This document shows positions 12,001-18,000 of a stretch of 64,000 bases of DNA, one piece after another. Each line of letters starts with the position of its first letter. Position 1 is the stretch's first letter. Source of the DNA: Stylophora pistillata (lineage: Eukaryota); contig NW_019217939.1 of the NCBI RefSeq assembly GCF_002571385.2, positions 283,149-347,148 on the forward strand, given 5' to 3'. Position numbers: made by a program.

Positions 12001-15000
12001 TTCGCCGTTTTATTTTAAGCCAGTTAAAGCCTGACGCCTTGATTTCTATTTTTATGTTTATATGTAATATCATCATGAACGATTGAAACTTTTGCTTTTT
12101 ATGTAGATGACTCAGTCCCCTCCATGCTATCCTAACTCGAAATTTAATTAGTCATTTCTGGTTACAAAGCCAACATCAAATCATTCGTGAGCCAAAAACA
12201 TAAGAACAAGCCAGCACACAACAAAAAAAAATTGGAATATTCAATTCAAGAAATAATCATAACTTTATCGACTTAGAAGAGCTCAGTTTTCTTGAATATA
12301 CCAGCCGTGTAACAATGATTTTTTTTCCCTTTTTTCTTTTTTTTTTCCCTTCCCACTAAGTGCGCCATTGTATGCAACATCACTGTCAAAAAAGGTAAAG
12401 AGCCTTTTAGATCTCCAAGTTGTTGACAAAGAAAGCAGCCGTAGCACTACTTTTACTACCATTTTTCTTAGCTCGTAATTCATCAACCCGAACGAAGGTT
12501 CGAATCGCGTTGTGCTATGTTGCTTTTACCCGAAGCATTTTCCTATTCGCCAACGGTATTAAATATATCTTATTAACCAAGCGCGAGTGCCGTACTGGGA
12601 GAATATCGGCCCGAGGTCTTGACAGCACGGACCGAGCGCAGCGAGGTCCGTACAAAAAAGACCGAGGGCCGATATTCTTCCAGTACGGTCCCGAGCAAGC
12701 TTGGTTAATAAGAGATTTATTATACGACTGAAGTTCAAAGGGACACAAGTGCGGTATCATTCGGTACCATTCGGGACAGTGCCCGGTCCAATACTGAGAG
12801 AATATTGACCGGCAATAGAGCATTTTGATTGGTTGATTTTAGTTATTGGCCCTCTGACTGCCCGAGTCGTGTAATAATTCACCTTAATAAACTACGCAGC
12901 GCGCTCAAAATGGTCAATTGTTATGTTATTCCTCAGCCATCGCTAAGATATTTTTATTTCACACTATGTTCAACCCTTCAGCCCGGCTGTGTCGTTTCCT
13001 GAGGGTAAGATTAAGAAGAAATTACAATATAAAAATGAAGAAGAAACGAGGAGTTTGTTATGAACAAACATTTCGCCCCTTGAATATCAAGCTATATCCT
13101 CTCTTCTTGTCTATAAATAACTGTACACGTGGCTATTTTGAATGGTTGCTATTTGGTATGTGTATGATAAAGCTGCACTCACATTAGTGATCAACTTACC
13201 AAAAGTTTAAGCATTCTTCAACATGGATTTTATCTTCTCGTCTTTTGCAGTGTCCATCAATTTTTTCCCATCTGGGTCTTCTCCATCGGGATCTGCACCC
13301 TGAAATTTTCAAAAGAGGAAATCAACTTTTGGAGTGGATGGTCAGTGGAAAAAGTGCACTACGGATTATGAGAATTTCTGTGAAATGGAGGTAAAATGTT
13401 TGAACCAAAGATATTTAGGGCACCAGCAACAAGCAGTACATTGAATACACATGGACCGCTAGAATATGAGACGGTTTCTGACTGTGTACTTTCATTTGCT
13501 CTAAGAAAGCAACCAATTACAACGGGAACTTTTCATACAAGAAGTGAACATTTTTCTCTGGAGTGGCGCCCCGCATAGAGGTCCTTTTTCCTATTGCAAC
13601 CATCCTGGTTTTTACAAATAGTTACCGTAAATTCAGTTTCAGACGATTCTTTTTTTCTCTGCATACCCTGCACAAGGACTGTGATTTAAAAAAAAAACTT
13701 GAAACCGCCGGGTTATCTAACCGACAGTCATTAAATCTCCAAACTATAGTCAAAGAGGAATCCTTTCAGCAAGCTCTGTTTTACATTTACCACCGACTCT
13801 GCATTACTGAGGATTTCAAAGAATGGTATAAGCTATTTCATTGGCAGTTGTTTCGTCAGCTGAGCTAATGTCGCTCAGCAATTACAGTCCATAATCCGCT
13901 CATTCAGATAGCTAAGCATATATTCATCACTTGTCCTACCCTGCGTTTCTTATGCTCCTACATCATACTGGATGAAATCATAAGCGAAAATTTTACAGTT
14001 CGCAATGCGCCAAATGTGTTTGGAAACGAGCTACCTGTATCGATTCTTCACTCGGGAGAATGCGACAACCTTTTCTAGGGAAGTTGAGCAAGATTTAAAC
14101 GCGGAATTATTAAGAAAATTCTCTCTTTTAGTTACATATTCTCATTACCATTTTCAGCAAGTACTCCACAAGATTGCTATTCTCATTCATGACTGCGTAG
14201 TACAATGGAGAACAATCATCCTCGTCAGCTAACTGGGAAAGAAGAAAGAAATCTAATCATTTCAGAAGATGTGGATGGCTTGTGTAGTAAGGTATATAGA
14301 AGTACGTACAGCTGCAGAAATGTATAAAGCTGTGTCGTTTCAGTTTCATATTTTTCCACCCATGCACATTCATAAGACTCAATCTTATATGAAAGGAATC
14401 TAAGCCATTTTCGCCACAGCACTCCAAAAACAATCTGAAGTGTAGCAGGTCCATGCTAGGAGAGAAGAGCAAAGAATTGAAGCCGTAAAGTGTTATCCAC
14501 TTAAGGAGTTTCAACCAAGGAAGTAAAATCTTATTTACGGAATCTCTTTTGCAGAAGCACATTCTAACAGTTTAAACGTTTTTCACGTTATAAATTCAAG
14601 CTAGGAAATACATCTATGTGCTCGATGCGTATTTTTAGACGTGATTTGTAAGTGGTCGGATGTAGAGGGTCTGAACTGAACAATGAATTAGCGATTCATC
14701 ATAAACGACCGATAATACTCAGTAGAGTCACTTCCCGATCATGAGATCTTCTTTCTCGTTTGCCATGATCTGTATTCTGTTGAATTTTTATCAATATCCT
14801 CTATCTGCTAAACGTTACCGGTTACTGACCTTCGCGCCATCATTTCGTTATGTTTTCTGTTTCCTGACAATAATTAACAGCGTTTAACGATTGGACAAAG
14901 CTTTGAACCTGAAATTTCCTTGATCACGTCTATTTCCACTGAAAACAAACTAACTCCACGCTCAAGCGTGAGAAAATATTAACAGATCTCAGCAACGGAA

Positions 15001-18000
15001 ATTTTGAAGTGAAATAACATGGTTCGTGAAATGTTCCGGTGTTCGTGACATCATGCATAAGATCACTGGTTTCACGCCTTTCTAGAAATTGGGGTGCAAC
15101 GCAGGAATGTTTCTGTACACGTTGGAATTATACATCAAGAAAGACGAAGTTATTCACAAAGAATTTATCCATCAGTCACCCTTCACTGCTGAGAAAAGTT
15201 GCCTCTGGATTAAGTATGTCAATAGACAAGGAGCTTTACTTGAATTATAATATGACGTCACTGAATGAAAGAAAACTTTTATTTTAGTCCATTCACACGA
15301 TGACATTTGACTTTATCTTCTCCAGGCAATCGTTTAAATCAATCACTGATATGATCATTTTTTTCCCTTTTAAAGTTAGCTTGGGTTGGTAGTTAGTGCT
15401 AATAGGTTTGTATTTAAATTAAAACAATCGTGGCTTCATTTCAAAGGTCGATAGGTCTTTCGTTGAATAAAATGCAAATTATCCAAAGACGTTAAGCTGT
15501 CAAATTCGTGGCTGGGGTACCCTTGAAGATCAATAACAGTGTTGTTTTTGTCGTTACTGGGATGTTTTCTTTTAATCCAGGGTATTGCTATGATTTCTGA
15601 GAAATGTGAATCGTTCAGTTATCATAAATGATTCCGTTCATTCATCAATTCAATTGCGCAACAAAACGTGTCATGGTAGACAGCATTTGAAGTGGTTGCC
15701 ATTATGTTAACTCAGTATATTTGAAGCTTTGCAAGTAAACTCGAGTAAATAACTTACATTAACATCCGCTCCTTTCGATACTAGGTACTTCATGACGTCC
15801 AGCTTTTGAGCTTGAACGGCAATATGAAGAGGACTGCGTCCATGTTGAATTGGCGTGTTTACCTGACTCCCCTGAAAAAAGAAAGAGGCAAGACTGACTA
15901 TCATGGCCAGCAATAAGATATTCTAAATCCCGTAGGTGGGTAGTTACAGATTAACAACAACGCCTTCGACGCCTTCTGATACGATTGACATACCAGTTAC
16001 TTGGTGTAAAGTCTCCAAAAAGGTTCAATTAACTAGGAAATCATAATTTGCAAACTTTGTCCTCAGCGAGACATAGGCAGTTCGATAACCTTCAAACTTG
16101 CAGATTATCAACAGTTACAGCTTTTATCTCTGTTATTTCGGCTCTTCAAATCGTGTTCCAAAGATAAAGAGTCAAACCTCTTCATGAGAAAGAAAATCCA
16201 AATTAAAACAAGTCAATTTACTTACCGGTCGTGAGAATTTCTCTTTCACAACTTCCAAATTCCCTGATCGTAACGCTGTGACTAAGATACTCATTTCTGC
16301 TCCTTTAAATGATTTTCACTTTAAGAATACCACTCGTGGTCAAATCTAAACGTCAAGTCGTCAAGTACTTAAACACTGCCCTTTATATATATGCATGTCT
16401 GGCTCACGCTATGTCACGTGTGACATATTTAATACAGCATGGTAGAGGTCATGGATATTTTTAAGACGCCAACCAAGAACATGCAATTATTTAAATGGAT
16501 GAAGAGTAGGAAATGCTTTGTCATCACGTGTATTTCTTCCAACCTGAAAATGACTATTAGCAGACTCCATTAACACAACTGCGCCTGCGCAATAAAGGGC
16601 GGAAAGAGAGAGGAAACAATATGTGAAGGGTATTATTGGAACCAAGCGAACCGACCAGGATTTTAGATAAACCACCTATGCAGAAAAATGATGAAAAGTT
16701 GAGTATGATCTGGGTGAAAAATTTTGGAAGTAAATTAAATGTAGCAACTAGACAAGCAAGCAAACAAAGAAAACAATAACAAAACAAAACAAAAAACGGG
16801 AAAATGTTCGCAAACATGCGCCAATCCGGGAAAAGAGGAACCTAATGTCTTTCCCTCTCTATTAAGAAATGAGCTACCTTAAACGAGGTACGAGTTGGTA
16901 TGCTGGATGAAACATAATTTTTACTAACGTTTGAAAGTAAACTTGATAATGGAGAAAATTCTTTCAGTGTAAGCCGGATTGGCGAAAATTCCTAAACATG
17001 CTTTAATCGCGGGTGAGCTTACCTCTCTTCGGATCCTTGATTAGAAAAAATCTTCTTAGCTAAAACAATGAGCTCGGCGATCTAAGAATGGGCTCATCAA
17101 AAGTATGTAAAGGAAATTTGCACGAAATTATCCCATTTCAGTCACAAAATAATCTTAACAAATTAAAAACGTGAATTTACTGGCATGATGTCAGAATGTT
17201 TCGCATTTGTAGAAGGCCCGGCTCATACGCTCTCAACTTGGTCCGAAATTCTTCAAGTTTGTCTTTTATATAATGCCCTATAATTATCTCTATCTTCATC
17301 TGTCCTAGTTCCTTCTTTGTTTCAAGTCGCCCCTTAGTTTTTTCAGTTTTAGCATAACACTGATAACCTTTGGTTAATTTACCTTCAATGTCTATGGTTA
17401 CATGTCGCCAAAACGTAAGCCTTTTCTCAATTATATTCACATTTTCTGTCCCAAGTTTTTCCATTGTATTTACGTAGCGGAGCAGTCTTTGCCTTTGGCG
17501 ATTCGAGTGATTTAGTGATTTTCAGGGGAGCCTTTTATTTCAAGTTTTCTGTAAGAAGTATTCTGGACAGATGTTCATACAAAGGTTTGCGTTTAATGCA
17601 AATGCTGGAAAAAGAAGCTTATTAGAGCTGCTAAATTTATACAAATTACTCTAGATGCTGTAAGATAAATTAGGTCATTGTTATGCGTTTTTGCTAAAGT
17701 AAAGCATCATTTCAATCCTATTAGGCTTCGAATAAATACTGCGCCAAACATTTTCAAAGCCGTCTAAGATTAAATACCTTAAATTAGCTCAGAGGAAAAA
17801 TTCTAAATTCATGAAGATCGTTAACGTAGCTCACCATATTTGTACATGTAAATTACACTTTATGTCAAAACTTAGCGATTAAGTTGTTGCATCGACAACG
17901 CATTTACTAATTCGAATTCGAAATTTGCACTTGATTATCACCTCATTTAAGCTTAAGGCTTTCAAAGTTTGTTAAATGAAAAACCTAGCAGTATGATGGG

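What the first reader, a model, noticed from the sequence alone, without database searches (positions are those of the whole stretch)
13207..16294. Hidden four-exon myotrophin/V-1 paralog that has lost the capping-protein contact residues
Seen in sequence: four phase-0 exons (69, 114, 84, 93 nt) with canonical splice sites give a clean 119-aa ankyrin protein, and only exon 2 shows in the ORF track. Established (from memory): human myotrophin is 118 aa, its internal exons are also 114 and 84 nt, and it sequesters actin capping protein through W8, D44 and E78. In my hand alignment these positions are T, Q and N here, while the ankyrin scaffold is intact. Inference: a duplicated myotrophin that kept its fold and gene structure but binds a different partner.
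Basis: partly seen in the sequence, partly recalled or inferred. Interest (0 to 1): 0.7.

Follow-up and report, generated by a model that had tools for sequence, protein, structure and literature searches.

The report
Small four-exon ankyrin-repeat gene
This is an ordinary-looking split gene for a tiny ankyrin-repeat protein of myotrophin-like size that has no tryptophan at all; whether it is a diverged copy of myotrophin could not be tested here.

Summary
On the minus strand, four phase-0 exons of 69, 114, 84 and 93 nt at 16294-13207 have canonical splice sites. They encode 23+38+28+30 = 119 residues. Exons 2 and 3 match Pfam ankyrin models. Exons 1 and 4 resemble the first helix and the last repeat of ankyrin proteins. 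A TATA-like box, an upstream in-frame stop and an AATAAA frame the gene. No other ankyrin exon lies nearby and no second copy lies in the window.

Takeda 2010 confirms that V-1 binds capping protein through Trp8, Asp44 and Glu78. None of the four exons contains a tryptophan. The expected acidic positions carry Gln and Asn, with a Glu one residue further on.

Exon-by-exon searches never singled out myotrophin. The hits were generic or designed ankyrin proteins. The joined protein was not searched, as the operators ruled, and no eukaryotic genome collection was on hand. Myotrophin ancestry, paralog status and the human exon sizes therefore remain untested.

Best reading: a real, stand-alone small ankyrin adaptor that probably does not sequester capping protein. 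Interest is low to moderate.

The parts
16383..16391 (-). TATA-like element (TATATATAA), 95-97 nt upstream of the ATG
   Evidence: Pattern scan; sequence. The only upstream ATG in the 106 nt before the start (16396) lies 5' of this element. Its role as a promoter is inferred.
16316..16318 (-). In-frame TGA eight codons upstream of the start codon
   Evidence: The frame holding exon 1 opens at 16315; sequence. The ATG at 16294 is therefore the first start in this frame, unless an unseen upstream exon splices in. No pyrimidine tract precedes the AGs there.
16226..16294 (-). Exon 1: 69 nt, 23 aa, ATG with A at -3, N-terminal capping helix pair
   Evidence: Translation. PDB search: 6 hits, of which 3 are ankyrin proteins (Kidins220 ankyrin domain 2.7e-5; consensus ankyrin proteins 1n0r 3.3e-5 and 1n0q 0.0014) and 3 are designed helical-repeat proteins. 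No single stretch is significant alone. No Pfam hit. No Trp.
15872..16225 (-). Intron 1 (354 nt), GTAAGT...cAG, phase 0
   Evidence: GC 0.370.
15758..15871 (-). Exon 2: 114 nt, 38 aa, first full ankyrin repeat (SPLH...GADVN)
   Evidence: Translation. Pfam Ank 5.8e-9, 36.2 bits against a cut-off of 21.1. Ungapped 36-38 aa alignments to ankyrin-1/2 repeats and DARPins.
14233..15757 (-). Intron 2 (1525 nt), GTAAGT...cAG, phase 0
   Evidence: GC 0.367. None of the frames of 40 aa or more inside it hit Pfam.
14149..14232 (-). Exon 3: 84 nt, 28 aa, second ankyrin repeat (SPLY...LVEYLL)
   Evidence: Translation. Pfam Ank_4 3.2e-4, Ank_3 6e-4, Ank 1e-3, all just under their gathering scores. 184 PDB hits, the best 60 all ankyrin or DARPin chains. 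Cross-hit to E2 in tblastn.
13300..14148 (-). Intron 3 (849 nt), GTAATG...cAG, phase 0
   Evidence: GC 0.389.
13207..13299 (-). Exon 4: 93 nt, 30 aa plus TAA, acidic loop (GADPDGEDPDG) and C-terminal capping helices
   Evidence: Translation. All 9 PDB hits are ankyrin-type chains, 8 of them named as designed or engineered. In each the best stretch lies in the last part of the chain, e.g. 126-148 of 169. No Pfam hit. The Atlas feature search gave generic ankyrin clusters.
12953..12958 (-). AATAAA, 248 nt after the stop codon: likely polyadenylation signal
   Evidence: Pattern scan. A second AATAAA lies at 12721. Use of either is inferred.

Best explanation
This is a real, intron-split animal gene for a stand-alone 119-residue ankyrin-repeat protein. 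The protein consists of an N-terminal capping helix pair, two full ankyrin repeats and a C-terminal cap. That is the size and layout described for myotrophin/V-1. There is no signal peptide, no membrane segment and no other domain. It most likely works as a small soluble adaptor that binds another protein through the loop and first-helix face of its repeats (inferred from the fold class). It has no tryptophan. On the register mapping it carries Gln and Asn at the two repeat-surface positions where V-1 has Asp44 and Glu78. It therefore probably does not sequester actin capping protein with V-1-like nanomolar affinity (inferred). Descent from a myotrophin gene is plausible from its length, layout and recalled exon sizes, but it was not tested here.
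For: - Gene model: four phase-0 exons with canonical splice sites.
- An in-frame stop lies upstream of the ATG.
- A TATA-like box lies 95 nt upstream and an AATAAA 248 nt downstream.
- Exon GC is 0.431 against 0.374 for introns.
- Ankyrin identity: Pfam hits for E2 and E3, and ankyrin hits in the PDB for all four exons.
- E4's best matches are to the last part of its 9 ankyrin-type hits, 8 of them designed or engineered. E1 matches first-helix segments.
- Stand-alone status: only 2 of 85 frames in 11000-19000 hit ankyrin models and no other credible domain appears.
- tblastn per exon gives only self hits and the E2/E3 cross-hit.
- Ankyrin-type motifs occur nowhere else in six frames.
- The capping-protein hot spots Trp8, Asp44 and Glu78 and their mutant effects are documented (PMC2897767).
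- None of the exon peptides contains Trp.
- E2's only two acidic residues lie at scaffold positions. One is in 'kldvmkyl', where ankyrin-2 also has Asp. The other is in GADVN.
Against: - There is no RNA or protein evidence, and no orthologue was seen.
- Exon-level searches do not place it nearer to myotrophin than to any other ankyrin protein.
- E1 and E4 have no Pfam hit. Their PDB E-values sum many weak repeat matches, and no single stretch passes alone.
- E3 is below the Pfam gathering scores.
- Loss of binding is argued from three residues. The published tests used W8A, D44R and E78R, not Thr, Gln or Asn.
- A Glu sits one residue after the Asn in E3 and might reach the same basic residues.
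- The mapping of Asp44 and Glu78 onto this protein uses positions recalled from memory, not an alignment made by a tool.
Confidence: 0.5

Rival explanations
1. It is a generic mini ankyrin protein with no myotrophin ancestry. Its likeness to V-1 in length and sequence comes from the ankyrin consensus alone. A cap, two repeats and a cap give about 120 residues in any lineage.
For: Every exon-level search returned consensus, designed or giant ankyrin proteins. Myotrophin was never seen: 0 of 6 hits for E1, 0 of 9 for E4, and none among the best 60 of 536 (E2) or 184 (E3). The Atlas gave generic ankyrin clusters. The three residues that define V-1's function are absent.
Against: Short exon queries cannot separate ankyrin families, so this negative is weak. 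This is recalled and unchecked. If true, it would be hard to explain without common descent.
Confidence: 0.25
2. It is this animal's only V-1/myotrophin orthologue and still regulates capping protein through a remodelled interface, for instance using the Glu next to the Asn and the acidic loops.
For: No second copy lies in the 64 kb. V-1 is reported from Dictyostelium to vertebrates (PMC12803934). E3 and E4 are rich in acidic residues, which could face the basic triad of capping protein.
Against: [quoted passage not shown] W8A alone lowers affinity about 300-fold. 64 kb says nothing about the rest of the genome. 'Myotrophin-like proteins', in the plural, are reported in a coral proteome (PMC12960093, passages).
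Confidence: 0.12
3. It is not a working gene. It could be a decaying duplicate, an unexpressed exon set, or a wrong choice of first or last exon.
For: There is no expression data. E1 and E4 lack Pfam support. E3 scores below the gathering cut-offs.
Against: All four frames are open exactly between strong splice sites. There are no frameshifts or internal stops. The start has A at -3 and a stop upstream. TATA and AATAAA signals are in place. The ankyrin scaffold motifs are intact in both repeats.
Confidence: 0.1

Closest known systems
Myotrophin / V-1 (MTPN), the stoichiometric inhibitor of actin capping protein
   Same: Both are single-domain proteins of about 13 kDa made only of ankyrin repeats, with two full repeats between partial or capping ones (review PMC12803934; here). 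Neither figure was checked.
   Different: No tryptophan is present anywhere. Gln follows SPLHIAV and Asn follows SPLYYAVM, where V-1 is said to carry Asp44 and Glu78 (positions recalled; residues). Exon-level PDB searches did not retrieve myotrophin chains. Capping-protein binding is untested.
Consensus-designed ankyrin proteins (1n0r, NI3C, DARPins, OR264-266)
   Same: These are the best exon-level matches. All four exons align without gaps to their helices, loops and last repeat.
   Different: They are engineered consensus sequences, so the match shows only that the scaffold is close to the ankyrin consensus. This is a natural, intron-split animal gene.
Membrane-skeleton ankyrins (ankyrin-1/2) and other long ankyrin arrays
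   Same: E2 aligns over 36-38 residues to single repeats of ankyrin-1/2 (best stretch 19 bits).
   Different: Those proteins carry 24 repeats plus other domains. Here only two full repeats exist and no further ankyrin exon lies within 11000-19000 or elsewhere in the window.

Membership tests
Ankyrin-repeat proteins (Pfam Ank clan) | At least one repeat scoring above a Pfam ankyrin model's gathering score | tested here: met
   E2 scores Ank 36.2 bits (cut-off 21.1), Ank_3 30.7 (22.3), Ank_4 30.5 (22.7) and Ank_2 29.5 (27.3). E3 is just below: Ank_4 21.4 (22.7) and Ank 19.7 (21.1).
Ankyrin-repeat proteins (Pfam Ank clan) | Stacked repeats in register: TPLH-type motif, helix 2, then GADVN-type loop every 33 residues | tested here: met
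   The sequence reads SPLH...GADVN, then seven residues, then SPLY...LLKM, then GADPD across the junctions. Alignments to ankyrin repeats are ungapped.
Myotrophin / V-1 | About 118-aa stand-alone protein with two full ankyrin repeats flanked by partial repeats | tested here: met
   119 aa from four exons. Two Pfam repeats plus cap-like ends. No further ankyrin exon nearby. The family description is from PMC12803934.
Myotrophin / V-1 | Closer in sequence to V-1 proteins than to other ankyrin families (reciprocal best match or tree) | tested here: inconclusive
Tested exon by exon only. Myotrophin was in 0 of 6 (E1) and 0 of 9 (E4) PDB hits, and not among the best 60 of 536 (E2) or 184 (E3). Exons this short cannot separate families.
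Myotrophin / V-1 | Trp8 on helix 1, which inserts into the hydrophobic pocket of capping protein | tested here: not met
   No Trp occurs in E1 or in any exon. No Trp-bearing N-cap motif occurs in any frame of the window. The role of the residue is from PMC2897767.
Myotrophin / V-1 | Asp44 and Glu78, the ion-pair partners of the capping-protein basic triad | tested here: inconclusive
   By repeat register the positions carry Gln (E2) and Asn (E3), and a Glu follows the Asn. The register of the V-1 residues is recalled, because no V-1 sequence entered the session.
Myotrophin / V-1 | Binds capping protein 1:1 and blocks barbed-end capping | not testable with these tools
   No capping-protein sequence of this animal was on hand, and the partner would have to be the joined protein. 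No complex was predicted.
Myotrophin / V-1 | Intron positions shared with MTPN genes (reader: human internal exons of 114 and 84 nt) | not tested
The exon sizes here are 114 and 84 nt. A search for 'myotrophin gene' plus 'exons' listed 2 papers, both on microRNA topics by title and abstract.

The most novel reading that the evidence does not exclude
This is a natural separation-of-function copy of myotrophin/V-1. It would be a duplicate that kept the fold, the length and the intron positions but replaced all three capping-protein hot-spot residues. It would sit beside a canonical V-1 elsewhere in the genome and would have been recruited to a different partner. It would show that the V-1 scaffold, described as dedicated to capping protein from amoebae to mammals, can be retargeted in nature.
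Probability: 0.3. Interest if true: 0.45.

Novelty: new member of a known kind. Interest (0 to 1): 0.25.

Why it matters
As it stands, this adds one small ankyrin-repeat gene to an animal genome. It is 'hidden' only from a prokaryote-style ORF track, and any eukaryotic gene finder or RNA-seq assembly would find it. It would matter somewhat more if it proves to be a myotrophin duplicate. V-1 is presented in the literature as a highly conserved, single-purpose inhibitor of capping protein whose contact residues are strictly conserved (PMC2897767, PMC12803934). A paralog lacking them would be a natural control protein for V-1 studies and an example of retargeting a minimal ankyrin scaffold.

Tried and rejected
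**Exon-by-exon searches**
- I looked for a myotrophin signal with Pfam, PDB sequences and Atlas features for E4. All gave only generic ankyrin matches.
- The joined 119-aa protein was not translated, searched, folded or docked. The operators ruled this step out, so whole-protein family placement, structure prediction and a capping-protein complex prediction stay undone.

**A second copy or more exons**
- tblastn of each exon peptide against the window gave only self hits and the E2/E3 cross-hit at E 0.16-0.28.
- In the Pfam scan of 85 frames, 2 hit ankyrin models. One frame hit Enterotoxin_HS1 at E 0.0093, which I treat as noise given 85 queries.
- The motif scan found nothing outside the four exons.
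- I rejected the idea that the exons belong to a larger ankyrin gene.

**RNA genes and repeats**
- Rfam at gathering threshold gave 0 matches and tRNA search gave 0.
- No direct repeats flank the gene that would mark a recent segmental duplication.

**Literature**
- Three primary V-1 papers (PMC5087048, PMC2919139, PMC2277501) are not held. The residue lists from the NMR and mutant studies and the Dictyostelium V-1 comparison were therefore not seen.
- Fig. S9 and Table S2 of Takeda et al. are supplements and were not seen. They may bear on which species keep the three residues.
- Searches for 'myotrophin-like' (4 papers), myotrophin + paralog (20 papers, 15 listed), myotrophin + cnidaria (6) and myotrophin + Nematostella (3) were read as listings only, except the coral proteomics passages. 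None showed a title or abstract about a V-1 paralog lacking the capping-protein residues.

**Collections**
- The closed protein collections and the metagenome and viral collections were not used.
- Genome contigs holds only bacteria and archaea and was not scanned.
- Orthologues and a canonical MTPN in this genome therefore stayed unchecked.
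Full report
**What is there**

The finding's coordinates hold a gene on the minus strand. Reading 16400 down to 13150 gives four open segments.
- Exon 1, 16294-16226: 69 nt, 23 aa, beginning with ATG.
- Exon 2, 15871-15758: 114 nt, 38 aa.
- Exon 3, 14232-14149: 84 nt, 28 aa.
- Exon 4, 13299-13207: 93 nt, 30 aa and TAA.

The total is 119 residues. All exon lengths divide by three, so the three introns (354, 1525 and 849 nt) are phase 0.

The donors are GTAAGT, GTAAGT and GTAATG. 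Each acceptor is a cAG, and those of exons 2 and 3 follow long pyrimidine tracts.

The frame of exon 1 is closed by a TGA eight codons before the ATG. The ATG has A at -3. A TATATAA lies 95 nt upstream and an AATAAA 248 nt after the stop. Exons are richer in G+C than introns, 0.431 against 0.374.

The stop-to-stop frames around the exons are 47, 71, 42 and 33 aa. This is why an ORF track with a floor of about 60 aa showed only exon 2.

**Is it more than chance?**

Yes. The evidence is as follows.
- Exon 2 matches Pfam Ank at E 5.8e-9, above the gathering score.
- Exon 3 matches four ankyrin models at 3e-4 to 1e-3, just below their cut-offs.
- Exon 1 has no Pfam hit. Of its 6 PDB hits, 3 are ankyrin proteins (the Kidins220 ankyrin domain and two consensus ankyrin proteins) and 3 are designed helical-repeat proteins.
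- Exon 4 has no Pfam hit. All 9 of its PDB hits are ankyrin-type chains, 8 of them named as designed or engineered, and the best stretch is always in their last part.
- The four pieces therefore read, in order and on one strand, as N-cap, repeat, repeat, C-cap. Each junction restores the 33-residue register seen in the ungapped alignments.

One caveat applies. The PDB E-values for exons 1 and 4 are sums of many weak repeat matches, and no single stretch passes alone.

**Is it part of something larger, or one of several copies?**

Neither, as far as the window shows.
- Of 85 stop-to-stop frames of 40 aa or more between 11000 and 19000, only the two that hold exons 2 and 3 hit ankyrin models.
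- tblastn of each exon peptide against the window found only itself and the exon 2/exon 3 cross-match.
- Ankyrin-type motifs that I wrote after seeing the exons occur nowhere else in the six frames of the 64 kb. No Trp-bearing N-cap motif exists anywhere.
- No direct repeats flank the gene.

**Surroundings**

The neighbours are animal genes.
- A SIX-type homeobox frame lies at 4478-5287 (+).
- An unspliced p24/GOLD frame lies at 9762-10400 (+).
- A DMRT-type gene lies on the minus strand, with its DM domain at 23376-23717 and its DMA motif at 21270-22079.

I do not take the contig for human. Rfam and tRNA scans found nothing.

**What the literature confirms**

- Takeda et al. 2010 (PMC2897767; section 7 read whole, other passages by search) solved the capping protein/V-1 complex.
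[quoted passage not shown] Glu78 bridges Lys256 and Arg266. Trp8 on helix 1 inserts into a hydrophobic pocket.
- Wild-type KD is 21 nM and W8A gives 6.4 uM. Mutating the ion-pair residues costs more than 25-fold in affinity. The W8A, D44R and E78R mutants no longer inhibit capping.
- The legend of Fig. [quoted passage not shown] The figure itself, a supplement, was not seen.
- A 2025 review (PMC12803934, passages) describes V-1 as an ankyrin protein of about 13 kDa with two full repeats and one partial repeat, found from Dictyostelium to vertebrates.

**What the sequence shows about those residues**

- Without any alignment, none of the four exon peptides contains a tryptophan. The Trp8 contact cannot exist in that form.
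- Exon 2 has only two acidic residues. Both lie at scaffold positions: one in 'kldvmkyl', where ankyrin-2 also has Asp, and one in GADVN. The residue after SPLHIAV is Gln.
- In exon 3 the residues after SPLYYAVM are Asn then Glu.
No V-1 sequence entered the session, so this mapping is a lead, not a test. The adjacent Glu is a caveat to 'lost'.

**What could not be shown**

- The claim 'myotrophin paralog' needs a whole-protein comparison and a genome-wide search.
- The 119-aa protein was not translated as one, searched, folded or docked.
- Exon by exon, myotrophin never appeared. It was in 0 of 6 hits for E1 and 0 of 9 for E4. It was not among the best 60 shown of 536 for E2 or of 184 for E3. 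The Atlas feature search with E4 gave generic ankyrin clusters.
- Queries of 23-38 residues dominated by the ankyrin consensus cannot separate families. This result is inconclusive rather than negative.
A canonical MTPN elsewhere in this genome, and orthologues in related animals, stayed unchecked.
- Three primary V-1 papers were not held.

**How it most likely works**

- Shown: a compact gene with intact signals encoding a protein made only of ankyrin repeats, with both repeat scaffolds intact.
- Inferred: a small soluble adaptor that binds a partner through the loop and first-helix face of its repeats, as ankyrin proteins do.
- Inferred: with no Trp and no acidic pair at the expected surface positions, it is unlikely to sequester capping protein with V-1-like affinity.
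- Confidence in this overall reading is about 0.5.

The rivals are:
- a generic mini ankyrin protein unrelated to MTPN (0.25);
- the animal's only V-1, with a remodelled interface (0.12);
- a non-functional or mis-modelled gene (0.1).

**Novelty and verdict**

- Listings for 'myotrophin-like', myotrophin + paralog, myotrophin + cnidaria and myotrophin + Nematostella showed no title or abstract on a V-1 paralog lacking the capping-protein residues. A coral proteome paper mentions 'myotrophin-like proteins'.
- This is a new member of a known kind. Interest is 0.25, rising to about 0.45 if it proves to be a retargeted V-1 duplicate.

Noticed in passing
window 12556-12725: A single-copy foldback of about 170 nt lies some 480 nt past the stop codon of the ankyrin gene. 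Its nested inverted arms are 82-85% complementary. The DNA fold is -53.5 kcal/mol, z -11.4 against shuffles. The second AATAAA (12721) lies inside it. It could be a miniature inverted-repeat element or a hairpin of unknown role.
   Followed up: partly
window 4478-5287 (+): An open frame holds a SIX1-type SD domain (E 2e-43) followed by a homeodomain: a SIX-class homeobox gene.
   Followed up: partly
window 9762-10400 (+): A 212-aa open frame matches the emp24/gp25L/p24 GOLD family (E 4e-39) and is apparently unspliced.
   Followed up: no
window 21270-23717 (-): This is a DMRT-type gene. A DM DNA-binding domain frame lies at 23376-23717 (E 1.5e-21). A DMA-motif frame lies at 21270-22079 (E 8e-12) and ends in a zinc-ribbon-like CxxC...CxxC tail.
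   Followed up: no
window 18202-18247: A perfect (ATA)15 microsatellite.
   Followed up: no
window 40108-40977: One run of 870 N. It explains the apparent GC dip in the 40001-42000 bin.
   Followed up: no
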